The notes below the pieces were generated by a model. That model searched no databases. It was not told the DNA's origin and was given only the letters and a program-made list of their open reading frames with translations. Of a stretch of 64,000 nt of DNA, positions 22,888-64,000 are shown piece after piece. The stretch's first letter is position 1, and each line of letters opens with the position of its first letter. The position numbers and the translations under genes were made by a program. The stretch comes from Blastocystis sp. Blastoise. Lineage: Eukaryota > Protista > Bigyra: Opalinata. The DNA lies in contig JBBPEB010000012.1 in the NCBI GenBank assembly GCA_039096225.1, positions 124,001 through 188,000 of the forward strand. The letters run 5' to 3'.

Positions 22888-24459
22888 TTATGCTCTTCCC
22901 CATACTTCATAGTCATCCACAATAAATGAATTTGAACTATTTGCATTTCCAGTATTTACAAATAATGATGACTTTTGAAGTGTATTTACTTCATTATAAT
23001 AATATGCATGACAAGTAGATGATGAATTTTGATGGCATCCATCAGATATATTAATATCACCAACAAATACTGGTCCATAAGAAGGATCACAATTGATAGC
23101 ATAATCTTTATTATGAATAGTATATTGAGTAGGAGGAATACCATGTTCATTACTTAAAGTAAATATAAACTCTTTAGAATATTGTTTATATGTCTCCATG
23201 TCACTACACATAGTGAAAGGAAATGATTCCCAACTTTGATCTGTATATCCTCCAAATATATTTATATGATTATTATGACCTATATGTTTTATTAGAGTCA
23301 CTGTTTCTCCTTGATTATCACAATAGTTATGAAATTCGTAAGCAGAATAATTATGCTCACTTGCTCTATATATAATAGTTTATAAATTAAACAATTATTA
23401 TAAATAATATATATAATAATGATACCTAAATAATAATTTCCATTTTTTGTCTTTTCCCAGCCAGTTCATTAAGGATCTTTTTAATTTTCTATTAATTATA
23501 GTAGATTCATCAAATATTCCTTTAATAATGCAGTCTTTCGCTTCATCTCTTCCTTGATCACCAAATAATTCAATCATTTCTTTCTCAAATGAATCTTGCT
23601 TAATATTACTAATTTTATCTTCTTCTATATCTATAATTTTATTCTTTACATATTCATTAATATATTCAATATATTCATATTCCTTATTCATATATAAACT
23701 ATCATCTATATGATTATAATCAGCAAATCCATGATCATAATTCATTATATAATTCTTCCATAATCCATTCTGTACTAAATAATCTTTTATAATCTTATCT
23801 TTATTTCCATTAATAATCAATTCTATTTCTTCTTCTTTTTCTATTTTCTTCTTCTTTGTTTCTCTACGTTCACGTGCAAAGACTAAATCTCCAGGAATAA
23901 TTATATTGCAATATTCAAATAAATCTAAGATTTCTAATTGGTCTTCGTATATAAAATTATAAAAATTAATTGGCTTTTCATTCAAATAATCTAATAAATA
24001 ATAAGCAGAAGCTTCATTTCCTATATAATCTAGATATATATTACCATAAATATCTCTTGATTCTTCTGAAGACGCTTCATATATATATGAGTAAGGAATT
24101 GATTGAATAATACTCTTTGATATTTGAAATAAAGAACCACTATTTGTGAAACGAATAAAATCTTCATCATTATTCTTGTTTCTATAATGATTACCATTTT
24201 TAGTAACACTATTTCGACTAATTTCATCAAAAATATTTGACGAAATCGAAGATTCATTGATTTGATCATCACTTTTTGTTTCATAATAATTACGAGAAAT
24301 GTTCAGAATGCTCTTAATCAACGTATCGGAATGAATATAAAGTTTTGATATTGACGAACAACAATCAACAAAAGAATGCAATAGTTTTCCACGTATAACT
24401 ATGTCTTCTTCTAGTTGCCTGAGACAATCTGTATTTATATTTATTTGTTCTATCAACAT
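22888..24459 (-). CDS. TLDc-domain protein with N-terminal BTB/POZ-like region
   Basis: Exons 24459..23426 and 23365..22888 (GT-AG intron 23425..23366) join as WKLLFR|ASEHNYSAYEFHNYCDNQGETVTLIK...IFGGYT..SW...FIFTL...YGPVF...VDDYEVW, which are canonical TLDc motifs. GNIYLDY..YLLDYL resembles BTB/T1. Confidence 0.9.
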
Positions 24460-25489
24460 TTTACGTGAATATTCACTATCAGGTCATTTTTAATTTTTAA
24501 AGCTTTTTGATTGGCTAATTTTCGTTCAAAACTTATTCAGCCAATAAAATTATAACAAAAAAAAGACTTAGGCAAAAAAAAACAAAATTTTCATAAAAAT
24601 TTTAAGTCGACTTTTGATTTAGACACAAAAACCCTATTAAACATATTTTATTAAAGAATTGACAATATTTTTTATTTACAGAGGATCACACGATATCCAA
24701 ACCGTTTTTATTTATTTTAAAGTCGCAATTCTGAAGAAAATGAGGGTCAATATTTTAAAATATTTTATAGTTGTGTTTAAAGTGAAGACCCTCTCAGAGT
24801 CACATATATGATTAAAAATGAATAAAAAGACCTCTATGGTTCGAAACCAAAATTCAGCCAAAAAGTCAAAAAATTATATTTTTTTTACACTGAAAAATTG
24901 AGCCGAGCCTATTTGTTCCATGGGCAGTCAGACCAGAGTTTTGAATTTTTAAAATATTTACGGGAATATTTTTCTCGTTCAAAACTGAGTCTATTTATAT
25001 TTTATTGACTATCAGAGGATATAAGTGTTTTAGAAGAGTTTTTTCATTTGATTTTATTATGACTTAAAGTTCCGCATACAAAGAGTATGCCAAAACTTCT
25101 AAAAAAACTACTTTTCCTCAGAATCAAATAAAAGTCTTTTATAAAGTCACTTTTAGAGTTAATTATGTAACATGCAATCGTTTTAAGTCAAAATTAATAG
25201 TTTTTAGACGAGTCAGTCAACAGATCAGAGAGTCAACAAAAATGAGTAATTTTTTAAAACTTGAAAGTAGTGAGATACAATAGTGTTGTGTCAATAGCTC
25301 AGTACATAACGTTTAAAACTTGTAATTTTAGTAGTGAGTCATAAAAAATTAAAAAAAAATATAAAAGCTATTTTTACGAAAATTTTTAGTATTTGACTAA
25401 CAAATTTTATTATATTAGTGAATTCATCTTTATTTTTAAATTATTATAACCAAACATATATAGATATTTTTATACTTATTTATGGTGTT

Positions 25490-25945
25490 TTTTATACAGG
25501 TATGCACTTTATAAGTATTTATTTATTAGATATTTTCTACTTTTTTTCATAATTCTTTTTAGTTTTCCATTGTGTAAATCCTTTTCCTGACAGATATTCT
25601 CCCAGGTCGGTTTCAAAGTGGTTCATCATGTGTACTTGTTGGGTTTTTTCTTATAAGGTATTTTATTACATTTGTTTATTTTTAATTTTTTTAGGTTGTT
25701 TATTAGGTCTTGTCGGTACTTCAAATAATCAATTAACAAAGTCTAGAAGGTATATAATTATATATTTTTTTTTTCTTTGCATTTAGATATTTTTCTTTTT
25801 TCTCTTTTCCTATGTTACAATATTCTTTTATTCTTTTTTTAATTTACTCTATTTTTAGTATATGTTTATTATATATTATATTATATAGGAAGGTGCTTTT
25901 TAGTTGCCATTGGTGAATTAGGTTGCTGGTGTGTTCTTTAAAAAT
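25490..25945 (+). other. Micro-exon cluster 1 inside element A (spliced; no clear ORF)
   Basis: Donors ACAG|GTATG (25500), TAAG|GTATT (25658) and GAAG|GTATA (25750). Acceptors at 25593, 25694 and 25888. The exons are GC-richer blocks of 55-64 nt between AT-rich introns. Confidence 0.5.
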
Positions 25946-26005
25946 TAAAAAGACTGATTTTACAAAGGATATTGGTCTCTATATGTCTATTCATGTTAAT
26001 GATAA

Positions 26006-26046
<41 letters not shown>

Positions 26047-26057
26047 AATATCTTTAG

Positions 26058-26648
26058 AATCACGGGAATAGTGCTTGATTTCTTTGAAGAGAGAGGTATA
26101 TATAAGAATATATACAGAGTTTATTAAGATGGATATACACAAGCAGATATTTATGGATTAGAAGATATTCAAGTTGATATAGTAGAGCCATTTCCTTACC
26201 TGGAGCGTCATCTAGATGCGTCACTTGTACTAACCAATACATCTCATGATAAGAATTTACTTATTTATTATCATCAGGACAAACAGATTTATACCATAAT
26301 AGATCTTTCTTACTCCCCCATTTCTGATAAATATACATATTCACTACGAAATAGTGATAATAGAGCATTTATTTTTGATTTATCTCAAGGTTCATATACG
26401 ATTCTAAAAGAAATTCCAGCACGTGATCGTCTCGTGACTCCCCTCAATCCCCCTCCAACAGACCCCATTCTCAGTACGAAACTCAAATCATTTGTCGAGG
26501 AATATACAGATAAACGATATTATTGTAAACCCTATAGTTTTTTATATAAAGCTATTGAAACCTCTTTATATGAATATATGAATGTATTACAATCATTATG
26601 GGCAGATATCGACTTTGGAAAAGATGTATATATATATATATATATATG

Positions 26649-26683
<35 letters not shown>

Positions 26684-27604
26684 GTTTGAATACTTATTCT
26701 CTATGTATAAATTAAGCATATATATTTATATACTTACTTCTCTTCCTTCACTTGTTACTATTTGTAATGAAATGTATATATATATAGTTTATAAAAATTT
26801 TTACCAAGTGATTTTCCCCGCCAAATTGATGTTGATGAATATACAAATACACTGAAATTTGCTGAAAAACGAAAAATGTAATTATGATTTATTATATTAT
26901 TAATATATATATATATATATATATAGTTATCAAGATCCTTATGATTATCAAAAATTATATATTAATATATATATATATAAGTTGATGAGATCAAACATGA
27001 AAAATAAAATTGATGTATATAATTATTATTATTATATATATATTTATATATAGGGAATAACGAATTTAACTACATTATTTAATGATCTTCAAACGGTAAA
27101 GAAATCTGCTATTTATAAATCACTTGTTCAATATATACGAGACAGAGTATATATAACTATCTATATATATTACTTATATATATGTTACTTATTATATATA
27201 GGATATATTAGATGTGTTATTCCGACAGTGTTTAAATACAGAAACGTTACGATTGTCTCTCTCTCTTCTTCAATATATATGCACTGTTATCCCTGTATTT
27301 ACTTATTATTCTATTCTTATTATTATATATATACATATTCTTATTCTTATATATATAGTTAACAAATAAGGATATTGATATATTTTATGAAGCTGTTCAT
27401 AATAGCAGTATATATGAATACATTCAAGCAACTACCATTATATGTCAACTACTCCCTTTCTTCCCTAATCAACGTATATATATATATAGTATTATGCTTT
27501 TTATTATTATATATTCTTATATATAGAACGTGAATATTTACAAAGTTTATTATTAAATACAAGTGTTGATATATGTACAGTACAAGTATATATTTATATA
27601 TACT

Positions 27605-27635
<31 letters not shown>

Positions 27636-27919
27636 AATTATACATATATATATATACTTATATTCATATTATTTATAGAGTATTAAAGTATTAAGTAAAA
27701 TTGTTAGTTATATATATAAATGACATCCCTGAATCACAACCTATTCCTGATTCTATTCGAAATTCTATTGTATATATTATGTATTATAATAACATTCTTA
27801 TTATTATTATAGAAAACAGTTGGTGAGTATATTTTCCGTTAAGGATGTATTTGTACTCCCGAATCAAATGAAGAAAAGCACGTGATATTCTCATTGATTC
27901 CACTTTATAAATCGGAGAG

Positions 27920-27973
<54 letters not shown>

Positions 27974-29600
27974 ATATATATATATTTTATTATTATTATA
28001 TATTATTATTGTATATTATTATAGACTTCTTAACAACATGGTTAAAGAATGCAATATATTTATATAAGTGTTTTAAATTATTCTTCAGTTTATTATGCTT
28101 TTAAACCTTCCTTTGAAATCCATTTCAATTCATATACTGTACTATCTCGTTTCTTACTTATAATATTATATCATATTATTATATATAATACAAAGAAGAG
28201 AAACAATATTAGTAAGTCTATATATATATGAATTGAATTATATTCCTCAAGATATGATATATACCTTATTAACAAGAATAGAAGAAATTATACAAATAGC
28301 TCGTTGTCCTTCTTCTTATATACCTCCTCAGTTACATACATTAAAAAGATTGATATTTATTCTATTTCCTTTTTTATGAGTCATAATAGTTTAAAAGAAG
28401 TCTATAGTCCTCCTTTTCCTCCTCCTCCTACTACTAATTATTTCACAGGTGCATATAAAGATACAGGAAATGATTTGATGATTGATAATGATATGGAAGT
28501 ACCTGAAGAAGAAGAAATAGGATTAATGAATACATATGAAGAGAAAGAAAGAGGAGAAGGAGAAGAAAAACCTAGTGGAGAACTGATTTATGGATTAAGT
28601 CATATACTGAATACGGTTGAAATTGAAGGTGAAGAAGAAACAGGAAAGAAAAAAGAAAAAGAAATGATAGATATGTTTACTTATATAGGAAAAAGAGAAG
28701 AAGATAATGATCATTGTATCTTTTGTATTTATTATGGTTTTATTATAGTTACATTATATTTATTGTATATATTATTGTGTGTATTATTATTATTATTATA
28801 TTATATAATATATATAGCTATTGATGTTCAATATGTATATTCTCTTCGTAACCGACTGAAAACCGCGGATAAGAAGATATATATGATATAAATATACTGG
28901 ATGACTTTGTATATATATATATATATATATATTATTATTGTTATTATTATTATTATTATTATATAGAATATATGTATTCTATGAATGTTTGAATCCCTCT
29001 ATCAGCTACTTATGTCACATGATTTTCTTATTACATATTTTATAGGATATACTTAATTATCCCCGGTTATATACTGTTATCCTGTTATCTCCTACTTCAT
29101 CTTCCCTACTAAGAGTAGCGTGTTGTCTTTATGAATTATAATCGTGGGAAATACTTATTCTAGAATTTCTCAAGTATATATATATATATACTTTATTGTT
29201 CTCGTGATATTATATATTTATATATATACTTTATTATTATATTTTGATATAATATATATATATATATATATAGTTATTACAATTCCATACAAACTACAGA
29301 AAAAGGATCATTATCTATTTGAAGAATTACCACCATATAAAACATATATATACAACTATATACCTCCTATAATACCCACGTTTTATGTTCCTTATTGATA
29401 ACCATGATTATCAGAAACATGGTTATTATATATCTTGTATATATATATATATATATTATATACTTATTGTTATTACTATTATTATATTATTATTATTATA
29501 TAAACTTTTGGATGATTCCTTTATGTATTAAGATAATGATAACTCTTGTATATATATATATTTATAATACTATATCAATATATATATATATTTAAATTAT
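26058..29600 (+). pseudogene. Captured, decayed multi-exon host gene fragment; part resembles the N-terminal ARM region of USP9X/USP24/USP34-type deubiquitinases
   Basis: About 15 exons bounded by TAG and GTA. Spliced ~26980-27590 reads LMRSNMKNKID|GITNLTTLFNDL...YIRDR|DILDVLFRQCLNTETLRLSLSLLQYICTVIP|LTNKDIDIFYEAV...IICQLLPFFPNQ|QREYLQSLL. There is an in-frame TAA at 27840-27842 and a frameshift in the (AT)n run at ~27715. No start exon or catalytic domain is seen. The family call is from remembered motifs. Confidence 0.6.
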
Positions 29601-30439
29601 ATATGGTTTTATAATCATGTATATATAGAATAGAAAGGAGTTTAATAAATTATTCATATTATATATATTATAATGATATATTACTATATATATACTATAT
29701 ATTATCTTTTTTATCTATCTTTTATTTTGTTTTATTTCTTTATATATTACTCTATTTGTTTTGTTGATATTTAGGAATAAAATTATTTATAGAATTCTTT
29801 TGGAATAATAGAAAAAAGAGTAAATATTAATCTACTTTATACTTTAATAAATTACATTCTTTATTATGTCTTAAACAACTCACAAAGCTTTCAAACATTC
29901 TCGTTTTATTTATACATCTACAATAATCGATAAATTGTTGAAATAAATCATATTAGAAACAAAAGTTTATAAATTTTGAATCATGTCTCTATAAGTGATT
30001 ATACTAAATATTTCTCTTGATTATCTAGGACCTTCTTGTTATAAATAAAATACTATTATATAAAAATAGCAGACAAATATATTTAATTGTAATTAAAGAT
30101 TTTTTAAATAACTATATTTTTGTTCTAATAAGTCTTAAACATGTTGTAATTAAATAATTTAGGTTCATAAACACATATTACATTTATAAATCATTTTTAT
30201 ATTCAAATAGACTTTTTATTAGAGAAAAAGGGAAAATTTAAAAATGTTGTAACCCCTGGAAACCCAGATTTTGTAAAGAATTTTATTATACAAAAGAAAA
30301 ATTGTAAGGGGGAATTTCTCTTTGTTTATAAGATTCAACTTTTTCGCATATTTATATTTATTTTTCTTTAATTTACAACTATATTTTATATATTATTAAA
30401 TGTATATATTATTTTTTTTATTTATCTTATTCTATATAG

Positions 30440-30960
30440 GCTTACTGGTGTGTCAAAATAGATTCTAATAGGTCCTAATTGGTCTTCTTTTTTAAAGGTA
30501 TGCTTATTTTTCATTTCTTTTATTCTCTTTAGTTAGTTTATGAGTTTCCGGGCCTGAACGTATAGAAATCTGGTTGTATTAAAGGTATATATTTTTTAGC
30601 ATTCTCTCTGCTATTATTATTTATTATCTTATATAGGTTCAACTATTGTCTCAGGTCTCCTTGGTCAACAAATCAATGCTTCTGAAGGTATTTAATTATA
30701 TTTTATTTTTTTGAAATTAACTAATTTAATTTTTTATAGGTTCTAGGTACTCTCTGGTGTCCCTTTTGGTCTACACTGCTAGGATTTAGAAGGTATATTG
30801 TTATAATATATTTATTTTTTTACATTCTATTTTTATAGTTTTGGTTCTTGTTCAAGAGTTGGTCTAGAAGTGATGTTAGAAGGTATGTATTCTATATTAT
30901 CTATATTATTATTAGTTCTATCAATTTATATATATAGTCCTCAGATACAGTTGCCAATTT
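30440..30960 (+). ncRNA. Micro-exon cluster 2: candidate multiply spliced non-coding transcript inside element A
   Basis: Exons 30440-30497, 30533-30584, 30637-30687, 30740-30792, 30839-30882 and 30938 onward. All five donors are AAG|GTAT and all acceptors are TAG. Introns are 35-55 nt. The first two exons have stops in all three frames. Confidence 0.5.
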
Positions 30961-31175
30961 ATCAAAACAAATCAAAATAATTATTATTTTCTTATCTTTC
31001 TTGCTATTTTAATTATTATATATTATTTATTGTCTTTTGTTATATATATATATTGATTATCATTCACACAACGATTAAATTAATAATAAAATGACGTTTC
31101 TAAAAGAATTCTGAACGAATGAAAAGAAAGACCATATTCGACAAAAATAACCTAGTTTTTGGCTACTCTTTTCGC

Positions 31176-32248
31176 GAGAAGTTGATTAGGGTCGTCCATT
31201 TTATCTATTTTGCCGTTAGGGGTTGTCCGCGGACAACCTGCGTCACGCACGATTTTCTTGTTCATCCAATTATTCTCTTATTTTTCATACTATTTTTCAA
31301 AATAAATATTTAGGGGTTGTCCACAATATTATTTTATTATTTTATGTTATTTTCAATACTATGGCATTTATTCTATTAATTCAGGATATATATTTTGTAA
31401 GAGTAATATATTCTTTGAGCAGAATGCAAAAATAATAAGACTAACCGTCAATGACCAACAAATTACGGCATTGCCATTCAATTAAATAAAAGATAAAAGT
31501 CTATTTTATATGCTCAACCATTTATTAACTTATCTAAGTTTAAAATGATGTGTATTACTCTAAATATGTTATAAAAAACAATAAAACAGAAAACAATTAT
31601 TTTTTAAATTATTTTCTTTTTATACCTGTAATAACATAATATAAAATCAAACAAAAATCATTTTTAAAGTCAGTTAGGGCAAGTGATATAGTCATAGCAA
31701 ACATATTTGTATAATAGGTGAGAATCCTATAAATCACAATTATCTTATTATAAATATTTAGTTAATGATAATCACTTTCAAAAATATTTTGTAACTACTA
31801 TTGCAATTGAATTATGCTTAAAACGAATTGTAATACCGCATTATGAATAAAATTCTTAATTAGACTTATAAATACCTTTAAGATATTCTTAATCGTGACA
31901 AGAGAATAGTTGTGTATTGTTAAACGAATTCTAACGGAAAAATCATTATTGTATTTACAGAATTGTGTTCATTTGTGCAATGTATGCTGATTTCGATGCC
32001 TACACATTATTTAAGAAGTTCTTCTAAGCTATGTCTATCCTGAATTAATAGAATAAATGCCATAGTATTGAAAATAACATAAAATAATAAAATAATATTG
32101 TGGACAACCCCTAAATATTTATTTTGAAAAATAGTATGAAAAATAAGAGAATAATTGGATGAACAAGAAAATCGTGCGTGACGCAGGTTGTCCGCGGACA
32201 ACCCCTAACGGCAAAATAGATAAAATGGACGACCCTAATCAACTTCTC
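31176..32248. mobile_element. Mutator-like (MULE) non-autonomous element/MITE, 1,073 bp, nested in CACTA element A
   Basis: 213-bp apparently identical TIRs at 31176-31388 and 32036-32248, starting GAGAAGTTGATTAGGG. 9-bp TSD TCTTTTCGC at 31167-31175 and 32249-32257. No internal ORF. Long TIRs starting with G plus a 9-bp TSD are Mutator hallmarks. Confidence 0.9.
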
Positions 32249-32598
32249 TCTTTTCGCCTGACTGAAAATAGTCTTAAAAAGTAATTTAGTCATTTTTTGG
32301 CAAAACTCTCCAAAAAGTATCACGGGAATACCTGATAGTGATTGTAGATAATGTAGCAACTAAAAATTTGAAAATTTTTTAGAAAAGACTTTTTTTTTCA
32401 CAGTAGGTGTCCCAAGTCACTATGAGGCATTCCCGTAAATATTATTTGCAGATCAACGCCAATTGTTGTAGAATTTTTTTTAAGATCAATTCAGACAAAT
32501 TATTGGAATAAGAAATTTCTTTTGTTGTTAAAATTTGATTGGTGAAAACAAACAAATAAGGAAATAATAAACATTTTTTTTCAATAAAACAATAAAAC

Positions 32599-32729
32599 AA
32601 GCCAATAATCTATTAATTAAAAAGAAAATAAGCCAATAATCAAATAAATAAAACAAGCCAATAGTCTATTCAATAAAACAAGTTAATAAGCCAATAATGT
32701 ATTCATAAAAATAAAAAATAAGCCAATAA
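32599..32729 (+). repeat. Five subterminal AAGCCAATA direct repeats
   Basis: Copies at 32599, 32630, 32655, 32688 and 32720 (spacing 25-33 bp), 180-310 bp inside the left TIR of element B. Confidence 0.8.
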
Positions 32730-32772
32730 AAATAATAAAAATAATAGAAAAAGAAAATAAAATTTGGCCCAA

Positions 32773-33459
32773 TTATATTATTGACTTGTGTTTAATGTAT
32801 GTGAATGGAAACCAAACACAACACTGCTGAAGCTTCAAAATCAGTTCATTATTCTTTTTGAATATTCTTTCATTTTTGTCTGGAAACGGAATCCTTTCAA
32901 TCCATTCGCATGTAAATTGATAATTACTATTATTATTCACATTCTCAATCCATGTATTAAGAGGCTCAGAGATCTCAAAGCCAAAAAACTGGATTATTCT
33001 TCTTTTCTGTTTCCGATTTACTAGTGACTCTCTCACACATCTCATCACCTCTATCTTACTAACCATGACTTTATTATCATATTTCTTGAAATAAAGATAA
33101 ATAATATTACAAATGTATAGATATAAAGGACTTTTTGTATCGACAACAGTGTTCTTTGCTTTTGTACAGAATATGCTTCTAGCAAGTAGTCTAATTTCAG
33201 TGTTCAAACAAAAAGGAATCAACATAAATAGATTCTTCACTTTATACGACCACATCAATCCTTTTCTAATAGCAACACCATTCATAATGGATACTTTACG
33301 AAGAAATTTCTCAACATATGTTGGAATAGTACATTCAGCTTTATCTAAAGGACATTTTTCTTCTATATCATCAAAATATGCATTAACATAGTCAATCATT
33401 CTCGATCTTACATTAGTAACCAATTGTTTTCGTTTCTTGATAACTATCTTAGATTCCAT
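32773..33459 (-). CDS. Transposon-encoded accessory protein (228 aa, basic N-terminus), no recognised family
   Basis: Intact intronless ATG-TAA ORF with coding-like composition, inside element B and divergent from the transposase. Confidence 0.7.
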   Translation of the reverse strand: MESKIVIKKRKQLVTNVRSRMIDYVNAYFDDIEEKCPLDKAECTIPTYVEKFLRKVSIMNGVAIRKGLMWSYKVKNLFMLIPFCLNTEIRLLARSIFCTKAKNTVVDTKSPLYLYICNIIYLYFKKYDNKVMVSKIEVMRCVRESLVNRKQKRRIIQFFGFEISEPLNTWIENVNNNSNYQFTCEWIERIPFPDKNERIFKKNNELILKLQQCCVWFPFTYIKHKSII

Positions 33460-33525
33460 TTAAGCTTCTAATATATAAATATAAGATAATAATGTTTATT
33501 AATTATAATAAAAGATAAATATTTA

Positions 33526-33636
33526 CAAATAATAATTGGAGGGAAATATTGTGGGAAAAAAGTACTAAAACCAAAAAAATCATGATAAATACCTTGAATA
33601 AAAATATATTTGTTTCAAATGATAATTGGAGGGAAA
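33526..33636. promoter_or_regulatory. Candidate bidirectional promoter with a duplicated CAAATrATAATTGGAGGGAAA motif (inverted CCAAT box)
   Basis: The 21-bp motif occurs at 33526-33546 and 33616-33636 (1 mismatch), in the 212-bp gap between the two divergent ATGs (33459 and 33672). Confidence 0.5.
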
Positions 33637-33671
33637 AAACGCGGCATTAGAAGATGTATAAAAGAATAGCA

Positions 33672-36600
33672 ATGAGTAATAATGACTTGTATTTTTATAA
33701 GTCGAATGGAATCAAATCAACACTGAATCGTATTCTTAATCAACTATCTAATTGTTTAATACCATATACACAAGACTAAACTACTATTATATATAGCAGA
33801 TGATATTTTCAATTTTGACAATTTTGATTTTAAATCAAATTGCTGAAACTCCTGTTGATAATATTCAAGAAAATGACATAATGAATTCTTTGGTAAACTC
33901 ATTTCTAAGTTCAACTGTATATATATAGTTAAAAATATATTATTATGTAAACTTTACTTAGAAATAATCGGATATAATTATTTTAATGAAATTCATTGAT
34001 CTATTTATTTATATTATATATACACCTATATAGAAAAAAAAAGAAAAAGTAAAAACACTTACTGAAGATATTGAAGAAGATATATTTGCTTGCTGGATTT
34101 TGCTTGGTATTAGTGAAGCTAAGATTATTTATCTATATACTTTAGCAAATAAAATAATTAAAAAGCTTAGAGATGACATTACTGCATTACCTATTCCACA
34201 TAATGGACAAGATATTTTGAGAAAACGAACCAATAAATCTAATACAAAACTTATATATAGAAACATTTACACATGCAGTATATGTTACAACATAAACACG
34301 TTTAATAATGGAAGAAAGAATCCACTTCTATCAAACATTCAGTGTAGTAATCCTACATGTAATAAAAATATTTGTATATATATACTATATATATAATATA
34401 TACTATATATACTATTATAAAGAATTAAATATATATTTTATATATTAGTATTATATAAAAGTTATTATATCTATATTTTTATATACATAATTATATATTT
34501 GTAAAATTTTGAATATTTTATAACTACTATCATCTATAGATAAAATATATTATTGATTATTAATATACATAGGTGATAAGCAGGTAATCATACCATTAAT
34601 TCCAAGAATAAAAGCACTTCTTGTTTCTTCACTGTTAACCAGGGATCTAACATATTATACTAAAGAGCAAATAAAAGATGCTTTCAATAATAAAACCTAT
34701 AAAGATTCTACAGGGTATAACTTACCTATTCCTCAATATATGTATGGATCAACCTATAAGCGACTAGTTACTAATGTAATTAATAAGGGGGATATCTTCT
34801 TATTCTTTCAAGTTACGACAGATGGTATATCAGTATTCAACAAAGCAGTAGCAGCACAAAACAAATCAGCAAATCCAATTCTTGTGAGATTATTAAACTG
34901 TGTTGAAGAGAAACGTATAGAATCGTGCTTAAGTATACTGATAAACGAATTCTTAGTATTAGGTGATGGCATAGATATGCCAGTTTTTGTAGGTGATACA
35001 GTTCAAACAAAGAGAGTGGTTGGAATACTTCTTGATGTTTTTGGTGATACTTTAGCAATCTCTCATGTGGGACATTTTCTAGGTCCAACTTCGACATTTC
35101 CATGTAGATTCTGTAATATGTCCAGTGATAGACATATAGATAATTTTCATCAAGGAATCAAGTGTTCATGTATTTATTCCTTCTATTCCTATTTCAGATA
35201 CTTCCATTCTAAACCAATCATATAATAACTTTGATGAATCATTAATTCTTTATGAATCTATCCAAAGAGACGAACATCATTTTGATGATGCATTTAATGC
35301 TAACATATATCATGAATTCACAAAAGATAAAATAAATGAAATAAGAATAAATAACTTACCGGAAATAACATCAATAAATGGTATTAAATGTGATAAGAGT
35401 ATTTTCGAAAAATTAAATTATTTTGATCCATCATGTAGCTTCCCAATAGACATAATGCATCTTTTTGGTAACATTACAACATTAATTCTATCATTGATAT
35501 TTGGATATAATAAAGCCTCCTATATAAAAAAATTAAAGAATAGTAATATGGATGAAAAGAAAGCAGCAGAAATTATTTCCTCATTTTCACTTGAACCATA
35601 CAACCTGGACATCTTAGCTACAAGGTTGATATGGATAAACAGCTTCTATGGAAAATGTGAGTACCAATACAGATATATTCTTGACGAAACTTCATTTCAT
35701 AAACTTACCACACATACAAAAGTAATGTTTATTTCTAAGATATTACCTCTTATATTATATGATTTTACTTCCAACGACAGCACCTTAATACCACTTATAG
35801 AACTCTTTGCTAGTATAGTCCATGATTCTAATACTATTTCTGCTTTCTCTGTGATTTTTGTTTACCCAAAGAACTTATAAATTCTCAACTACATATGATT
35901 TGTCACATTCCACATTGCATAATATCTTCTGGATCGATGAAAGCTGTTTCAACATGGTCTTCTGAGTCTTATTATTCTAAGTTGAAGAGAAGAACGTATA
36001 GTAGAAATGAGTTTAATATATCTACTTGCATAAACTGGATATATCAGGAATCTATTATGTTATCTACAGTAGAAGCAAAAAATATTAATGAGCCTATAGA
36101 TACACAAATAGCCAGAGCAAACAATGATAGAGATATAAATATAAATAAATTTTTATATAAAAAATGTATATACCACGAAGATCATAACACCAATCCTTCA
36201 GTATTTAGTGCTCAAGGAAGAGATGTAATAGAAGGAATAGAATTAAATGATGAAGATATAAAGAATTTGTTAGTTACAATATTAACGCATGGATCCAATA
36301 AAATTGTAGCCTTACTACTAGAAGAAAATCTTTTCAATACAAAATCAAAGAACCAAATTATACAGCTATTGAATAATCCTAATACACTAAATACCTATAA
36401 AAATAGATTAAATCAATTACATATAAATTACTATACAAAAATACTTGTTAATAATGAAATTATATTTGATAGATCTGATATAAATTCAGGGGTGAATAGA
36501 ATAGATAATTCTTACATTATATCGTACACATCAACTGGGATACCTCATCTATATAAGGCTTTACTATATGTTCAGGTTGAAGAAGAATTTTATATTCTTA

Positions 36601-36797
36601 TGTGTGATTATGGCCCAGCAAAACCATCAAAGACTGGGCTGTACTTTATTATTCAAGGAACATCGTTTGAGAAGGTATTTAAAAAAATAACACTAGTTCT
36701 TCCTTCCAATATCATAGTGGCCGACGTCCATGTAGATAATTCTTGTGATGAATCTAATAGCAATAAGGTAATAAATAAATATTATAAATTAATCTAA
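33672..36797 (+). pseudogene. EnSpm/CACTA (Transposase_21-like) DDE transposase, spliced, probably frameshifted near 35850
   Basis: Exons 33672-33729, 33797-33892, 34034-34373, 34573-35169 and 35198-36797. Motifs in order: CSIC..CSNPTC, IPLIPRIKALL, VTTDGISVFNK (D1), GDTLA (D2), FPCRFC, NGIK..SIFEKLNYFD..FPIDIMH, HMICHIPH, STWSSES (E). The reading frame switches between 35850 and 35895. Confidence 0.88.
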
Positions 36798-38272
36798 ATA
36801 TTTAAATATATACAGAAAAAACCAAAAAGAAAACGTCGTATCTCAGAAGAGGGACTGTTTGTACCATCCAGCAGTGTTATCACGTATACTGTGTTCACGC
36901 CTTCGGAGACAATGAAGAATCACGGTTATTCACCTGTACAATAAAATTCATAACATAAATATATACAATATGTAAAAATATATACCTGTGTTTTATTATA
37001 ATTCTTGTTTGAACCTCTTCTTGTAAGCCTTTACGGTCACCCGGTATTCTTCTGATTAAGATTTGTGTTGTTTCTAGAACAGATCAGTTGATCTTTATTC
37101 AAGTATCTAAAAAACATATATATATTTGACATAACACTGTAAAAATACATACACAAATTTATGAATTGACTTGAATAACATTCTAGTTTGTATTTTTTGT
37201 TTTGTTGAAAATATGATTATTCAGTTCTTTTCTAAAATTCTATTTTAAAAAAAGAAAAAGATATTTTCACGAATTTAAGGAATTCTTAGGTAAAATATTT
37301 GTTTAATCACGATTATGTTTAAAACGTTTGACAAAAATAGAGCATGGAAACATTGCACATTTCATTTTTAGTAGTTTATATAATCAAGTTATACAATGAA
37401 ATATACGTCTTTATTTAGTGATTGATAGTCTCAAGTGGTGTTGAGCAGCCTCATATATATATCAAAATTATTTAGAAGCTTTCTTGTATTGAAGAATACA
37501 TTTAATCACTTTTCTATTCCTTTATGTGTCTTTATTCCTATATTAAATGGTCCTCGTATATATATATAGTCTGTCTTTGCGTTTTATTTGACAAGTCATT
37601 TTATTATCCTATATATTTGTCTTAAAATTATTTCACTGTTATAGTTTTTGCTTGTTTTCTTTCAATGAGTTTATTTATATTACTTTCAAGTGACAATCTT
37701 AGTATTTGAAATAATGCTTTAGTAAAAGTGTCAATTGTCGAAGAATGGATTATCTTCTGTTAATATTGGGTAAATTTCTATGTAGTTTAACTTGCCTCTT
37801 ACACAACTAGTCATAAATAGGTTATAATGATATGCTTGTATATATAGTTCATCATGTTATAATTTATTGTGTTTATATTTTGTATATTTTATTTATGTTG
37901 TTTTACATGTTCATGTTTTAAGTCGTTTTTCTAATATTAATATTTATTTTTTCAGCTTCTTTTTGTTAGAGTATTGATAGTTTTTCATTAGAACTTATAC
38001 AAAGTACTTGCTAATAAACTCAGTTTAATCTAGCAAAAATAATAATGTAGTTTTAAAAATTGCTGTTGTTTTTTAAAAATAGAATTACATACATATTTAA
38101 AAACAAAAATAAAATAAAAACTTTTAAAATGCAATAACAAAATATAATATATGTATACATAAGTAATAAATTTGTTAATAAATGAATATTGTCTAAATAT
38201 TAATATATAAGCTAAGTTATTATTTATGATGTTACACATACTAATATAAGCTTAGATTTTATTATTTACTTA

Positions 38273-38290
38273 TATAATAATTATATATAA

Positions 38291-38352
<62 letters not shown>

Positions 38353-38386
38353 TATATATATATATATATGTAAATATATATATATG
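38273..38386. repeat. (AT)n microsatellite
   Basis: Long interrupted TA dinucleotide run. Confidence 0.9.
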
Positions 38387-40849
38387 TTGCTACTTAGATC
38401 TACATTAATTAAGAATTTGTGGTTTTATTCATTTGTAATTATACAATAAAACTAGAATAATTTGTTTTAGAATTCATATAATTGAAATTTTGAGAAACTT
38501 TTTGAGACCTTATAAGAATTGACTATATATTTCTATATATAGCATATATAATAAAATTAATAGGATTTACTTTTTTCATTTTAAAATACACCAAATACAT
38601 AATTCCTTTTGAATGTAGAATGGTATTTCATTCTTTTTATCTTTATATTTTATAAAATATTTAATAATATGATAATAATAAGCCAATTACTTATTATAGA
38701 AGACTGAAACACTATTTTTTGATGATGATTAAATTGATTAGTTATTAAATAACTATTCTGGATATATATTGTTTTATGTGTTTTGATTTCAGAATATTTC
38801 ATTAGAGTCGAATCACAAGGATTAATTTTTAAAATAAGCTGAATAATCGAAGTATATGAAATATTAAATGAATAGAAATAGATGATAGAAGCTGAATATA
38901 CATGATATATAATAGAAATAAGATTCTTTTAAAAATAAGAATCAGGATTATTACTTGAATTAGAGCAACAATAAATTATTCAAAGAATATATGTTCAAAT
39001 GATACCTTTTATTAAAAGAGTGGGAAAAAAATAGTTTAAAAATACTATTTCAAATCAAAAATAAAAGGAGAATAAAAAGTTCATATTAGACGTAGTAAGA
39101 AAGGAGTTGATAATTTGAATAATGGAAAACATAAAAAGATAAAGCATTTGAAGTTGAATACCATGATTAATTAATTAATAAAAATCTGTATTAAAATAGT
39201 TAAAGAAGAATTACAGCTAATAGAAGATAAATTAAAGAAGTTAATCGGAGTTTAAATTGAAATAATAATAATAAAATAATGGTACTGCCAGCGTAGAAAT
39301 GTAAATTAATATTTAAGAAATAGAATAAGAATATTCAGTAGTGAACAGAAGTAAAAAGAGCTAAATACAATTAGATAAAAAAAGATATTTAAATTAGAAA
39401 AAGAAGAAAGAATTTGTGGATATAAATATATAAATATGAATAAAGAATAAGTAGAGGAGTAGAATCAGAAATCAAATAACAGAAAAGAAAACTGGAATAA
39501 AGACTATGATTAGATTCAGTAGTTCATTATTTATATGCTAAATCGTAGAAGAATGAAAATAATAATATTTTTTGATACAAAAAGCTAAAATAAGAAGAGA
39601 ATATTTGTGAATATAAAAGAATGCTAAAAAAATGTTTTTGACACATAATAGTTTAATAGCAATGAAAAAAAAATAGAACTAAATATATAGTTATATAATA
39701 GATACAGAAACAGGAGTACTAAAAGACAGAGTGGAATGATATGATATCATATAAAAAATTGAGGAACAAGAAGAATAAAAGAAAAAGAACATTAAAAAAA
39801 AGATGCTTTAAAACTATTAAGGTTAAAAAGAGCTAATGTAAACTAGAATGACAATTTTAATTATATGAAAATAAAGAAGAATACTAGTATTAGAAAGAAT
39901 TGCATAAACAAGATGTTAGAATTAAAGATATAGTACAGTATGCAAATAGAAAAAGAAAAAATAATAGTATATCAGTTTAGCATGAATATAGAAAGGAGAA
40001 AGAGTAAAAACATTATAAGTCTTTTACATTGTAAACAGAATTAGTCTGACTAAAATTAGTTTTTAGAAGACTAATACAAATAAAAATAGTAGAAACACCC
40101 ATGAAAACCTTAATATAAAAAAATAGATATATATTTGTAGAAAGAGTAGAATAATAAGAATAGTAGTTTTAATGAGAGAAAGACGAGAATGAATTACAAT
40201 AGTAGAAAGAGTATGAATCTTATTACTAAGATTGACAAGAATATAGACATTAAAAAGTAGGAAGAAGAGTAATTTAGGATGAATAATATAATTAGAGATG
40301 ATAATGTATTATTCATATTAAAAAAACTCCATAAGAATATATTATAAAATTAATTTCCTATAAAAGTATTAATAACAATAGGAAAATATGGAAAATAGAA
40401 AGACTAGCAGATAGTTATAAAGTGTAATGAAATTAACAGAGAGTAATAGAGAGTAGAAGATTTATATGATAGTTATAACTAGTAGAAGAAAAGCTAAACA
40501 GAATAATTATAAGAAAGGTAGTTAGAGGATAATACAATGAAAACTATGAGAAGGAGTAAGAAGAGTAGAAAAAATAGAAAGGCTGAAATAATTGAGAGAG
40601 CAAAAGGAAAGAGGAAGAATAGTAACGAGAAAAAGAATGAATATAAAGTAAGAAGATTAGGAAGATTAATGCCATTATAAGAAGTTGTAAGAATAGACAT
40701 ATAACTAATAGTTGATAAACTAGGAATATTATAAAGACTAAGAGTAACAAAAGTATAAGTAATAGAATTAATAGGAATTTTTTGTTTTTTAGTAGAAGTA
40801 GTGGTTGAATGTGGAATATGAAGAATACGTATAATTAGTAGCACATCTA

Positions 40850-42900
40850 GGTAGTATGTCTAGAAAACATAAAATACATAAAATACATGGAGTACAATAA
40901 TATATATATTATATATATTATATAATACATAATATATATAATATAAAATGTATATATTATTTATTATATAATATAAAACAATTAGTAGTATATAGAATGT
41001 ATAATAGTATGAAGAATAGATATAATATGTATATATAAGAAATAAAGAGAAAATGCTACATTATGTAGAATAAGTAATAGACAAACAATAGAATAGAAGA
41101 AGAAAGTGAAAAGATGATAATAGAAGACTAGAGAGAATCAGTAAAAAAAAAGACTAGCTAGAATTAGTTATTGAGTGTAGAAAAACTACTTCTAGTTATA
41201 GAAACTATAGAAACTAGAATCTGTTGATAAGTACAATTATTAAATAAATACATTTGATATAATATGAAAAATCGTTAGAATAGCTATAATAGGCCGAAAA
41301 AGAAGAATATCAAGTTCAAGTTTATTATTTATAAATAGAAAGATCAAGCATAATAAACATAATAAAAATTATAGGAATGTTAGGAGATTGGAGAACATGT
41401 TGTAAAAATACAGCATACTTATTATATTTAATAAAAAAGACTAAGTGAAAAAGGAACTATAATAGTATAAGAAAGCAAAAATAATATTCAGAATCAACAG
41501 AACATGAGAATATATCTTATTACATAGAATACATATTATTTACAGAATACATAAAAATATATGTAAAGTGTAGTATAAATATAATGAGAGAATAATAAGT
41601 ATTCTAGTGTTATGAGCATAATTAGCAATATTTTGTACAAATAGAATTATTAACATTGTAAAAAGTACGGTTATTATTATAAAGAATATGTATTAAGGTG
41701 GAATATAGAAAATAAATAGAATCGATGATGATAGACAGAATATGTAGAATAGATAGAATAATTGTTATATACATAATATTCAAAATCAGCTGAATAAGAA
41801 CAGTAGATATGATATGTACTATTTGGTAGAACTGATAAAATAAAGAGCAGTAAGCAGAATAAAAAAAATAGAAGTATAGGTAGAATAAGATGAATAAGAA
41901 TGGATAGAATAAAAATTAGCATGAAAAGAGTTTGAATAGAAAGAAATCGAACTATAGAAGAATAATAAATAGTAGAGAGAATTTGACATAAGTTGAATAA
42001 TCAAATTTATAAGTATAAGAAAAATAAGTAATGTTAAAGAGTATAAGTTAATAGTTGATTTTATGAGTAGATTTGTAAAATAGACAAAATACTTGTGGAA
42101 TATGTAGTAGTAATATAGAGTAAGTATATGAGAAAGAATAAAGAGAATTAATAGAATAAGTAATGAAATGAATAGATAGAATAACTAAAATGGGTAGTAT
42201 TTGGTGATATAAATAAGAATAGGTAGAAAGAGTAAAATAGTTCAAAGTATTGGATAGTTAAATGGTTAGAATACGTATAGAAGTTGAATAATTAGAAAAT
42301 GGTACATTAATTAACATTGAAGAATATAATATATAGATAAAATGTTGTATCTTTGAATTAGTAAAATATATAGTAATTTGATGAAAAAATAAATAGTATT
42401 ATAAGTAGAATACGTAAAAAAAGTAGTAGTTCTAATTTCTCTAGAATAAATTATTTTATAGATATAACAGATTTGATAGAATCATATTAAATGTATAAAT
42501 AGGAGAAAAAACATTATTAGAAGAATAGGCAGAATACATACAATATGTAGAAAGAATATAGTAGATTTTAATAGCTTTAATAGATAGAATCGATGGTATA
42601 GATTGAATAAGTGGAATATAATAAAAAAAAAATATGATAAATACATACAATAAAAACAGTAAAGAGTAATAAGTAGAATGAATATAATAGGAATAATAAG
42701 TAGCAATACGTAGAAAGAGCAAAAAGGTAAAACAAATAATAACAGTTAAATAGATGGTATTTCTAATTAGAGGTAAAACACCAATAGATAAGTAGAACAT
42801 ATAACATATATAAAATATATAAAAACAATAGAATAGAGAAATAAATGGAAACAGTAGAAATAAATAGATTGAATAAAGAATAAAATAATAGAATATAAAA
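40850..42900. repeat. Degenerate purine-rich low-complexity tract with recurrent TAGAATA and an apparent ~9-nt period
   Basis: Dense AGAATA/GTAGAA words. Spurious minus-strand ORFs read as I/L/S/Y triplet repeats (ILSIL, YSTYS), as expected from a 9-nt period. Confidence 0.45.
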
Positions 42901-43039
42901 TGTGTAGAATGCGCCAATAAGTAGAAAAGGATAATAGTTTTTAGGAGTAGCTATAGGTAAAATGTGTATAATTCTAAGATTGTATCGGAATAAAATGAAA
43001 TAAAAATGTAATCAATATAATGGATAATTTTGGTTAATA

Positions 43040-43790
43040 GATAAAATAAGTACTATTCAGTAGAATAGGTATTACAAGAAGTATAGACAAAAATTAGTAG
43101 CTGTTATAAAGAAAAAAAAAAGATTTATAAGAAGAGAAGGTAGAATATGCAGATAATATAGAATTTATAGAATTTTGTAGATTATGTAGATAGTTATTAT
43201 AGGTATTATAAACATAATAGATAGACTAATTTTTATAAGAAGAATAGATTTAAAATTTGTTGAAACCAGAATAATTTGTAGTAAGTAAATAGATAGAACA
43301 AGTATTATAAGAAGAATATGTTGAATATCTAGAAAATACAGAATACATACAACGATAAAAGAAAATGAATAATAATTGTTAGTCATACCAAGTGGAATAA
43401 GAAGAACAAAAGTAAATATTATCAGAAATAGAAATTAATAGAGAGGATTTAGAAGAGCAGTTACCATTGTAATAAGAATAGTACTAATAATTTAAGCAGT
43501 AAGAATGATACTATGAATAATTATAATAAAAGACATAAAAATAACATTAATTCTAAAAAGTAAGGTAAAGATAAAATATGGGAAAAGAAGCCTAGTAATA
43601 TAGGAAGAGAATCAACATTAAAAATGTTTTACTTAGAATAGAAGTAGTATAATAAAACGGATAACACTAATAGGAATAATACTATGAAAAAAGATAAGAA
43701 TATATGAGGAAGAATATTTCTGATACAAAACAGAAATAAAAGCAGTTTTACCATCTATATTGGGCTTAACAATAATATGAGAAACCTAAA
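43040..43790 (+). pseudogene. Possible fossil Penelope-like reverse transcriptase fragment
   Basis: Read across stops and frameshifts: KYY..GI (43050-43073), CR/YVD..IIGII (43175-43210), EYVEYLE (~43314-43334), NG* (43656), VLPSILGL (43745). Order and spacing resemble the PLE motifs YxQxxGxxMG, RYVDD, FLD, NGY and LPYxxGL. Highly decayed. Confidence 0.3.
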
Positions 43791-45912
43791 TTAAAAGTAT
43801 AGTAAATAAACATGATAACAAAGAATAATAAAATCATAATAATAAATATGTATATACATTTTAAATAATAGTTTTATATATATCGAAACATAAGTAAACA
43901 ATTATTTTATATATCAGCAAATGAATTAATAGATCAATAAGTATCCATGAAAATGAATGAATCTTTCACACGAAATTTTTTACCTATATTTAAAAAAATT
44001 ATTGAATTAATAAAAATATAAAAAAATGAAATAAGAGATAAATATCAATTAGATAATAATATATACGTAATAATAAAACATGATTAAGAATATAAATATA
44101 AAATATATAAACAGAATCAATTGATTCACTAAGGAATAATATATATATAAATACAACTTATATGAGTATTAAATAGTGTTTAAAGAAAGACGTGAAGAAT
44201 AATAAACACAATATGAATAAAAAAGAAGATGTAAATATAAGAATATACCTTATAACAATATTTTGAGATTATGCTTCAATTACAAGTTTCTGAACCTATT
44301 TGATATTCAAAACAGACGAATTTGAATCTAAATATAAATAAATCAAAATTACGATACAGATGAGTATAACTAACAAGAAAAACATTGAGATAATTGATTA
44401 AGAATATAAATAATAAATGCAATGATCACACTAGATCTTTGTAATAGTGAGAAGCTGTTCACATAAAAAGCTTTTAAAACTGATGACTTTGGATGGATTA
44501 TTTTTAAAACTCTTATAAATAAAATAAAATTTCCGTGAATTAAAAGTCATAAATTCTTCCTTTGTTTTAAAGTATAAATATTGATACTATAAACATTTAA
44601 CAAGTCACAGCATACACTACTAAAGCTATTTTATTGTATCCAAACATTTTAAAGGTGGAATATGAAAATAGAATCATTTTGTCGAAATCACTAATTACTA
44701 GGCAGACTCATTTGTAAATATTTATTTGAAATAAGAACAGACCCTATTTGTATAAAAGGCATAAAATATGTCTATATTACGTGTTTTCTTTGAAAATGGA
44801 AAAGTAATTCTCAAATTTTAAACCCCTATAAAACTTTCCATTAAAACTGTTAGTTGACCATTCGCAACAAGTCATAAAATAAGTGTAGACTCTTTATAAG
44901 CCTCAATAAGCTGTCAAATATAAATAGACTCATTTTATAGTTAAAAAAATATTCCCGTAAATACTTACAGAATTCAAAAATCTGGTCTGACTCTCCGACA
45001 GACAAAATAGGCTCGTCTATTTTTTTCACTGTAAAAAAATAAAAAAATATATTTTTTTGGCTGAATTTTGATATTGACCATTAGAGGTCATATAAATTAT
45101 TTTTATTGATGTTTATGACTATTAAACAACATTTTCTTCAAACATAACGATAAAATATTTTAAAACATTGACCCCCATTTTCTTCAAAATTGTGACTTTA
45201 AAATTTAAAAAAACGGTTTTGATGTCGTATGACCTTCTAAGACAAGAAAATAATGTCAATTTTATTATATAATGTGTCTTATATAGTTTTTAGAGTCTTA
45301 TAAAAATTTTACTGAAAAAAAGTGTCCAAATTTTGTTAAAATTCACGATTTTTGCCTAAGTCGCTGAAGTCAGTCTCTTTTCATTGGTGGAACAAGCTTT
45401 GAACCAAAATCAACCAATTATATGAATTTAAAAATAAAAAAGTGCCTCATAGTGAGTGTTTTTAAAAAAATATTTTATCAAAAGAAAGTCAAATAATTAT
45501 ATGAAATTCGTTAAATAACTGTATTAATGTTCATTTTTTGTGGTTTTTATAATTATTAGAGTATAAATAATATTCATTTATAGAAGCTTTATAGACATGC
45601 TATACATATATAAAACGAATAAAATATATAAAGTATATATATATCCTCATAAAAAATATAAAATCAATATTGACCTAAATTATTTAATATATAGATATAG
45701 AATATATTCATTTTATCCTTTTACATCTAAGGATTCTAGATAAAATCAATTATGAATCACAGTAGCTATAAATATCTTATACACAATATATATATATATA
45801 ACAATAAAAAAAAAACATAAAACAAACAAACAAAAAATAATACACATAAAATAACAACTATAGCTTTTCATACTGAATAGATCACTTTGTTTACAATTAT
45901 TAACCAAGTGAT

Positions 45913-63500: not shown

Positions 63501-64000
63501 ACGAGTAATACTACCTTCATATAATTCATTATTTTCACATGGAATACTAAATGAATTACCACTACTAGTTTCTTCATAACCATCTTCTGTAGCATCACAT
63601 ATCTTATTAAGAATTGTTATTGATATTATTGTACTATTAGATTTATCTTCATTATAAGCAGTAATTGTATAATTATTTAATGATTTATATATTAAAGGAA
63701 TACCACTTATAATACCATTCTCATTATTAAATATTAATCCAGATGGTAATGTAGGATTTATAACCCATTCTGTTACTATATTCTCTATATTTGGTATTAT
63801 ATTTACATTTGATGTCTTTCTATACCAAATATAATTTATTTCATTATAACTAATTATAGGAGATTTATAAACACATGTATTAATTATTGATTCAGACCAA
63901 CTAGCAGGATATTCATTATTACATAATCTTGTTATACTACCTTCTTTAAGAGAATCACATTCATGTGTAGCAATTGTACCAGCAACAGTTTCAGACCATT
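57588..64000 (-). CDS. Second giant Ig/Cys-repeat protein (5'-partial), near-identical paralog of the 3' part of the gene at <1..18901
   Basis: Exons >64000..58679, 58585..58407 and 58319..57588, with the same intron positions and the same C-terminus ANKRRLRSL*. It has at least one extra 2001-bp repeat unit. Confidence 0.9.

What the first reader, a model, noticed from the sequence alone, without database searches (positions are those of the whole stretch)
30440..30960. Regular ~100-nt exon/intron ladder with perfect splice sites but no reading frame
Five consecutive 44-58-nt exons all end in AAG|GTAT, separated by 35-55-nt AT-rich introns ending in TAG. Exon lengths do not keep phase and two exons are closed in all frames. 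The exons are not tandem copies of one another. Uniformly strong splice signals without coding capacity suggest a transposon-encoded spliced ncRNA. It runs antisense to where a transposase would lie and occupies the position of the accessory ORF in element B. Possible roles include self-regulation, or splicing used to look host-like and evade silencing (speculative). This is the least explained structure in the window.
Basis: partly seen in the sequence, partly recalled or inferred. Interest (0 to 1): 0.75.

Follow-up and report, generated by a model that had tools for sequence, protein, structure and literature searches.

The report
Spliced noncoding RNA inside protist transposon
A multi-copy jumping DNA element in the gut protist Blastocystis carries a stretch whose RNA is spliced through six tiny introns yet has a stop codon in every frame; it is likely a decayed passenger gene, though its preserved splice junctions leave a working non-coding role open.

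Summary
The ladder is real. Five AAG|GTAT donors occur where shuffles give 0.17. RNA contigs splice all five introns plus a sixth upstream one. It lies in a 7.9-kb transposase-less CACTA element (24474-32340, CACTA termini, 3-bp target duplication) of a tortoise-type Blastocystis. The element's cargo gene has nine near-identical gene models on eight contigs, and at least one sibling has the same ladder. 'No reading frame' is overstated: one frame has a single stop after an exon-2 ATG, then runs 87-97 codons (p 0.01-0.02), and two public models translate it. But diverged expressed paralogs are broken in that frame too, show no third-position bias (hand count 30/26/34), and no homologue was found. 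I found no RNA structure, Rfam family or pairing with the transposase. Best reading (0.5): a transcribed, spliced, decayed passenger gene of a Pack-CACTA-like family. Rivals: an element-encoded lncRNA selected for clean splicing (0.25) and a translated small protein (0.18).

The parts
24474..32340 (.). CACTA element A, non-autonomous; 10-nt perfect terminal inverted repeat CACTATCAGG; 3-bp target duplication ATT/ATT
   Evidence: no transposase relic in 29400-31175
30351..30401 (+). Exon 0 (5' end uncertain; a possible acceptor lies at 30332). Splicing to E1 creates an ATG
   Evidence: joint 30401>30440 in X1 and X2
30402..30439 (+).
30440..30497 (+). Exon 1 (58 nt); frame A gives the 7-codon uORF MLTGVSK ending at TAG 30459
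30498..30532 (+). Intron 1 (35 nt)
   Evidence: spliced in X2
30533..30584 (+). Exon 2 (52 nt); ATG 30540 and TGA 30555 in frame B; internal acceptor at 30565 used by two public gene models
30585..30636 (+). Intron 2 (52 nt)
   Evidence: spliced in X1 and X2
30637..30687 (+). Exon 3 (51 nt)
30688..30739 (+). Intron 3 (52 nt)
   Evidence: spliced in X1 and X2
30740..30792 (+). Exon 4 (53 nt)
30793..30838 (+). Intron 4 (46 nt); spliced in X2, retained in the main X1 contig
30839..30882 (+). Exon 5 (44 nt)
30883..30937 (+). Intron 5 (55 nt)
   Evidence: spliced in X2
30938..31025 (+). Terminal exon 6; contigs end at 31021-31025, one paralog with a short A tail; frame A stop at 30978, frame B stop at 31054 beyond that end
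25465..25945 (+). Second, similar ladder (donors CAG|GT, AAG|GT, AAG|GT) ahead of the cargo gene; splicing not tested with RNA
   Evidence: partly included in models P0001, P0002, P0005, P0006
26058..29420 (+). Intron-rich cargo gene of unknown family, interrupted in this copy; nine near-identical models on eight contigs
31176..32248 (.). MULE-like insertion (218-nt inverted repeats, 9-bp target duplication) between the ladder and the element end
32418..45454 (.). CACTA element B (termini CACTATGAGGCA, duplication AGT/AGT), inverted relative to A; Transposase_21-like gene 34557-36797 (+) in three ORFs; accessory ORF 33459-32773 (-)

Best explanation
The ladder is a spliced RNA unit (six introns removed in RNA contigs) inside a transposase-less CACTA transposon whose cargo recurs on several Blastocystis contigs, and it is likely a decayed passenger gene that is still transcribed and spliced but likely makes no useful product. 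Shown: the termini and target duplication, the splice junctions, a probable poly(A) end near 31021-31025, an identical ladder stretch in a sibling copy, and stops in every frame here and in diverged expressed paralogs. Inferred: (1) the element is moved in trans by an element-B-type transposase, because the termini match in 9 of 10 bases and about 950 nt of one end are homologous; (2) transcription starts at an internal promoter near 30250-30350, or reads through from the cargo; (3) ribosomes would stop in the 7- and 5-codon upstream ORFs with 4-5 junctions downstream, making the RNA a likely nonsense-mediated-decay substrate; (4) the uniform AAG|GT donors and ~100-nt pitch are likely inherited from an old gene built by duplicating one exon-intron unit, whose frame (probably frame B) has since been hit independently in different copies.
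For: CACTA termini and TSD. End homology between A and B. Nine cargo models on eight contigs; P0013 differs from the window in the cargo but is identical in the ladder frame. Splicing. Relic-frame hints: an 87-97 codon run (p 0.010-0.020), an exon-2 ATG kept in two diverged paralogs, and no indel visible in 10 of 10 diverged paralog segments (hand reading). Present lack of coding constraint: frame B is stopped in the window (TGA, E2), in one paralog (TAG, E3) and in another (TGA, E4). Differences by codon position are 30/26/34 of 90 in frame B and 27/22/22 of 71 in frame A (hand counts). Host-codon fit of the best frames is p=0.054 for the ladder against p=0.001 for seven putative host exons. 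No homologue. No structure or RNA family. UPF1 and UPF2 domains are listed for all three tortoise isolates (PMC12129017 Table S5 rows).
Against: A dead gene should lose splice sites and gain indels, yet paralogs up to about 55% different in blocks keep exon register and junctions. This could reflect present selection on the RNA or on a protein. No parent gene or intact copy was found. Exon GC (38%) exceeds the giant host ORF (26%). Contig depth for the ladder is similar to the cargo's, which is not what strong decay would predict, although contig depth is a poor measure of expression. Unit duplication rests only on E3/E4 (p=0.004, 1 of 36 pairs) and four TTGGTC hexamers (p=0.026).
Confidence: 0.5

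Rival explanations
1. The ladder is a working, element-encoded long non-coding RNA. Selection keeps optimal splice sites and exon lengths but not sequence, because what matters is being spliced efficiently: it would mark the element's chromatin or RNA as host-like and avoid silencing triggered by stalled spliceosomes.
For: AG|GT donors in 8 of 9 ladder introns (both ladders) against 3 of 22 putative coding donors. Junctions and exon register are kept in diverged paralogs, with no codon-position bias (hand count). There are two ladders in one element, one in the accessory-gene position. Piwi and PAZ domains are listed for two of three tortoise isolates and RNase III for all three (PMC12129017 Table S5). 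Spliceosome stalling as a transposon signal in Cryptococcus is described in passages of PMC6232588.
Against: No folding signal (29 of 60 shuffles fold as well; five exons z -0.45 to +1.04). No Rfam match at gathering level. Duplexes with transposase, accessory, cargo and terminal RNA beat all 15 shuffles in only 3 of 25 tests, close to the 1.6 expected. Element B, which has the transposase, has an ORF in that position instead. No functional data.
Confidence: 0.25
2. Frame B encodes a real, fast-evolving hydrophobic protein of about 100 residues, or the C-terminal tail of the chimeric cargo protein. This copy is a pseudogene or is translated only through the cargo-to-exon-2 splice.
For: Stop-free run of 87-97 codons (p 0.010-0.020). 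ATG preceded by an in-frame stop in three copies, with sense codons at the window's TGA in two paralogs. No indels seen in paralogs. Public models P0012 and P0013 splice the cargo into acceptor 30565 and read frame B for 92 residues, from a pipeline said to prefer RNA-supported introns (PMC12129017 section 17).
Against: The run within E1-E5 alone is not significant (58 codons, p=0.18). Poor codon fit in frame B for E2-E4 (-0.59, -1.03, -0.38). Stops in two paralogs and no third-position excess. The cargo-to-E2 join is absent from the 13 joints. The frame-B stop lies beyond the observed RNA end. No stand-alone relative of 39-126 aa and no Atlas hit.
Confidence: 0.18
3. Each exon is a fragment captured from a different host coding gene, as in soybean Tgm-Express1, and the spliceosome joins them without regard to frame.
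For: E1, E3 and E5 each show some host-like codon use in their own frame (p 0.07, 0.10, 0.05). The cargo gene is chimeric in models P0007 and P0008.
Against: Captured coding exons would carry the host's mixed donor context (AAG| in 1 of 22), not 5 of 5, and would not share one length. No source gene was found.
Confidence: 0.07

Closest known systems
Tgm-Express1, soybean CACTA with captured gene fragments (PMC1947982; abstract and passages)
   Same: CACTA-borne exons and introns that the spliceosome processes, with intron retention and variable ORFs; gene models can fuse them to neighbouring exons.
   Different: Its fragments come from five unrelated host genes, four of them named, and are transcribed from the host F3H promoter. 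The ladder has no identified parent, uniform AAG|GT donors and a ~100-nt pitch, and seems to form its own transcript.
Pack-CACTA / Pack-TYPE elements (PMC8903248 passages; PMC6379663 listing only) and animal Pack-TIRs (PMC8277862 passages)
   Same: Non-autonomous element with superfamily termini and TSD, gene-like cargo, several copies, transcribed cargo, neighbouring insertions of one family.
   Different: Those are defined by a hit to a parental host gene, which was not found here. They are described in plants and animals; my searches found none in Blastocystis.
Non-coding snoRNA host genes such as GAS5/UHG (recalled, no call)
   Same: Short exons without an ORF, strong splice sites, upstream ORFs and likely NMD.
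   Different: Introns here are 35-55 nt, 14% GC, with no snoRNA match.

Membership tests
CACTA (En/Spm) superfamily | Terminal inverted repeats beginning CACTA | tested here: met
   CACTATCAGG at 24474 (+) and 32340 (-)
CACTA (En/Spm) superfamily | 3-bp target site duplication (PMC8978399 passage) | tested here: met
   ATT/ATT for A, AGT/AGT for B
CACTA (En/Spm) superfamily | Transposase_21 transposase in the element or in a partner with the same termini | tested here: met
   Absent from the part of A tested. B's ORF 34557-35225 is nearest to Transposase_21 clusters at 0.96 in the Atlas, although Pfam scans gave no hit
Pack-CACTA / Pack-TYPE | Non-autonomous element with intact TIR and TSD | tested here: met
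Pack-CACTA / Pack-TYPE | Several copies forming a cluster | tested here: inconclusive
   Nine cargo models on eight contigs, but the termini of the sibling loci could not be read (no genome held)
Pack-CACTA / Pack-TYPE | Internal DNA matches a parental host coding gene | tested here: inconclusive
   Cargo hits are siblings and two chimeric models only; no Pfam family above cut-off; no parent for the ladder
snoRNA host gene | Introns encode C/D or H/ACA snoRNAs | tested here: not met
   No Rfam hit in the ladder at E<=5; introns 35-55 nt, 14% GC
Structured ncRNA | Folding better than shuffles, or covariation | tested here: not met
   covariation could not be tested without full paralog sequences
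Protein-coding gene under a reassigned code (TAG=Gln) | TAG used as sense in host genes | tested here: not met
   No TAG or TAA in the first 5,966 codons of the giant ORF, against 121 CAA/CAG in the frame; 4.4% of shuffles also give a frame with TAG stops only
Functional lncRNA | Phenotype, or selection on the RNA beyond neutral expectation | not testable with these tools
   Needs all genomic copies or experiments

The most novel reading that the evidence does not exclude
A protist CACTA family has replaced its accessory protein gene with a 'splicing decoy': a ladder of ~50-nt exons whose sequence is free to change but whose lengths and optimal AG|GT junctions are selected, so that the element is read as a well-spliced host gene and escapes small-RNA silencing.
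Probability: 0.12. Interest if true: 0.8.

Novelty: new variant of a known kind. Interest (0 to 1): 0.38.

Why it matters
At the least it shows recently inserted CACTA elements carrying transcribed, spliced cargo in Blastocystis, where my searches found no CACTA report. It also shows that such elements seed at least nine 'hypothetical protein' models in a public annotation. If the splice junctions are under selection without any ORF, the family is a compact natural test of whether transposons keep introns only to look like host genes.

Tried and rejected
Reassigned stop codons (table 6, TAG=Gln): rejected; the giant ORF is open under the standard code. Exons as hairpins, H/ACA or C/D guides: no folding signal and no Rfam hit. 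Antisense pairing with transposase, accessory, cargo or terminal RNA: 3 of 25 tests beat all 15 shuffles (a first, slower version timed out). Homology of the ladder to B's accessory ORF: none. Apparent homology of exon 6 and downstream DNA to the accessory gene's 3' flank (p=0.01 against shuffles) weakened against real AT-rich windows (44 of 462 and 6 of 462 scored as high), so I claim only a positional analogy. Homology of ladder exons to B's first cargo exon or to the giant ORF: none. Protein searches with the stop-as-X read-through: no hit at E<=10 among 178 candidates; one hit among 1.84 billion representatives, a tandem-repeat protein matching 10 of 19 residues, rejected as chance. DNA or protein relatives in metagenome, prokaryote and viral collections: none. 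Runs X3, X4 and X5 gave no usable cover, which is no evidence of absence. The T run before 30351 in X1 may be a priming artefact, so the start site is unknown. I first read paralogs as dense mosaics of identical and divergent blocks; the tool hides differences near contig ends and joints, so I say only that differences are clumped. My idea that B's 5-kb cargo is a decayed copy of the giant ORF got only low-complexity matches. No structure or complex was predicted.

Full report
Setting. The window is an AT-rich, intron-rich eukaryotic sequence read with the standard code: a giant ORF has no TAA or TAG in its first 5,966 codons. A cargo exon near the finding matches proteins that NCBI names Blastocystis sp. 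Blastoise at 97-100% identity (5 of 8 hits), so the organism is that strain or a very close one. Tortoise isolates have 21-23% GC, longer and variable introns, and canonical stop codons (PMC12129017, abstract passage and section 6). No genome was held for the window.

The observation. AAGGTAT occurs five times in 781 nt; 0 of 5000 dinucleotide shuffles reached five (mean 0.17). Exons are 38% GC and introns 14%, and the unit pitch is 99.6 +/- 4.3 nt. Two of five listed runs hold the region. Run X2 (poly(A) RNA) joins all five introns at the predicted GT..AG sites. Run X1 joins introns 2 and 3 and keeps intron 4 in its main contig. Both join a sixth intron, 30402-30439. Contigs end at 31021-31025, one paralog with a short A tail. 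The 5' end is not defined. Contigs show presence only, and because siblings are identical over much of the ladder the RNA cannot be tied to this locus. The donors are unusual for this genome: AAG| precedes 5 of 6 introns of this ladder and 2 of 3 of a second ladder at 25465-25945, against 1 of 22 putative host and cargo donors (those donors come from a heuristic scan, and from reading by eye; three mis-set positions were dropped).

The element. CACTA termini occur at 24474 (+), 32340 (-), 32418 (+) and 45454 (-). They delimit element A (24474-32340, duplication ATT) and element B (32418-45454, duplication AGT). The A end at 24474 is homologous to the B end at 45454 (73% over 544 nt, with a further ~430 nt aligning above 100 shuffles), so the two are inverted relatives 77 nt apart. 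B carries a transposase in three ORFs whose first part is nearest to Transposase_21 clusters (0.96; Pfam scans were blank), and an accessory ORF on the other strand. A shows no transposase relic in 29400-31175. It carries ladder 2, an intron-rich cargo gene, the reported ladder and a MULE-like insertion with a 9-bp duplication. The cargo has nine near-identical public models on eight contigs, and two further models share only its middle part. P0012 and P0013 continue from the cargo into an internal acceptor of exon 2 and read exons 2-6 exactly as in the window. P0013 differs from the window in the cargo, so at least one sibling has the same ladder. That join is not among the 13 joints.

Coding or not. 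Splicing gives ATGs that open 7 codons (frame A) and 5 codons (frame B), then two ATGs in frame B that run to the RNA end. Frame A has three TAG stops; reassignment is excluded, and 4.4% of shuffles give such a frame. Frame B has one stop and then 87 codons to the RNA end, or 97 to the genomic stop (p 0.020 and 0.010; 0.0075 with the end set at the stop). Within E1-E5 alone the run is not significant (p=0.18). Host-codon fit of the best frames is marginal for the ladder (p=0.054) and strong for seven putative host exons (p=0.001). The laid runs also show diverged paralogs as ten replaced or loose segments of 15-30 nt (further loose ends were not shown by the tool, and some segments come from one contig). 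By hand count, differences fall 30/26/34 on codon positions of frame B (90 differences, 8 segments) and 27/22/22 in frame A (71 differences, 7 segments), with no third-position excess. Paralogs carry their own stops: TAG in exon 3 and TGA in exon 4 in frame B, and two TGA in exon 4 in frame A. Against a purely dead sequence, none of the ten segments shows an indel, junctions stay in register, and the exon-2 ATG is kept in two paralogs that have sense codons at the window's TGA. These segments were selected by the tool for being divergent and are short, so the count has limited power. Searches found no relative of the read-through or of the frame-B peptide.

RNA function. Single exons and the spliced core fold no better than shuffles. 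Rfam gave two chance-level matches outside the ladder. The longest exact matches of exons to the rest of the window are at chance level, and duplexes with element RNAs beat all 15 shuffles in 3 of 25 tests. The ladder is unrelated to B's accessory ORF. Tortoise isolates list UPF1 and UPF2 domains (3 of 3), Piwi and PAZ (2 of 3) and RNase III (3 of 3) (PMC12129017 Table S5 rows), so both NMD and small-RNA silencing are plausible but untested.

Verdict. The best-supported mechanism is a passenger gene relic in a non-autonomous CACTA family: copied with the element, transcribed, spliced at inherited sites, stopped early and probably degraded (0.5). The uniform donors and pitch most likely come from an old exon-intron unit duplication, for which the evidence is weak (E3/E4 p=0.004, 1 of 36 pairs; TTGGTC four times, p=0.026). 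A selected non-coding RNA (0.25) and a translated small protein or cargo tail (0.18) remain open, because indel-free, junction-preserving divergence needs explaining. It works like Tgm-Express1 and Pack-CACTA cargo (PMC1947982, abstract and passages; PMC8903248, passages). CACTA membership is met. Pack membership is inconclusive because no parent gene was found. Searches for a Blastocystis CACTA or a spliced non-coding CACTA RNA in protists returned nothing relevant: 0 'CACTA' or 'EnSpm' in 12 supplementary files, one general review, and none of the 10 listed of 39 papers mentioning Blastocystis. The library lacks most subscription papers. Earlier scan notes on this genome concern a provirus and agree only on the organism; look-ups for this ladder returned nothing.

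Noticed in passing
window 3-17900 (+) and 57588-64000 (-): Giant intronless ORF (over 5,960 codons, open at the window edge) with ~333-codon repeats that look like Ig-like surface-protein repeats (label recalled, not scanned), and a 98% identical inverted copy of its last 4 kb at the other end of the window.
   Followed up: partly
window 39000-44400 (-), inside element B: About 5 kb with a strongly asymmetric strand (G 5.7%, C 15.9%, T 50%), stops in all frames and a decayed-gene look; no convincing match to the giant ORF. Unexplained strand-biased decay.
   Followed up: partly
window 24474-45454: Two related CACTA elements with perfect target duplications sit 77 nt apart in inverted orientation. 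A's end lies about 15 nt upstream of the first ATG of the ORF 23398-24483 (-), next to a TLDc-domain ORF. Looks like local hopping.
   Followed up: partly
window 25465-25945 (+): Second short-exon ladder with AG|GT donors ahead of the cargo gene; public models start their protein inside it in different ways. One exon has good host-codon fit (p=0.005). Splicing not tested.
   Followed up: partly
window 26058-29420 (+): Cargo gene family of unknown function; gene models of near-identical copies differ widely in exon choice, and P0007/P0008 fuse its middle to other N-termini. Likely mis-annotated transposon cargo.
   Followed up: partly
window 31176-32248: 1.07-kb non-coding MULE-like element with 218-nt, 99% inverted repeats and a 9-bp duplication: a recent nested insertion.
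   Followed up: partly
window 34557-36797 (+): Element B's transposase is split into three overlapping ORFs in different frames: broken, or with unrecognised introns.
   Followed up: no
window 32773-33459 (-): 228-aa intronless accessory ORF of element B with no Pfam hit; no homologue search was run on it.
   Followed up: no
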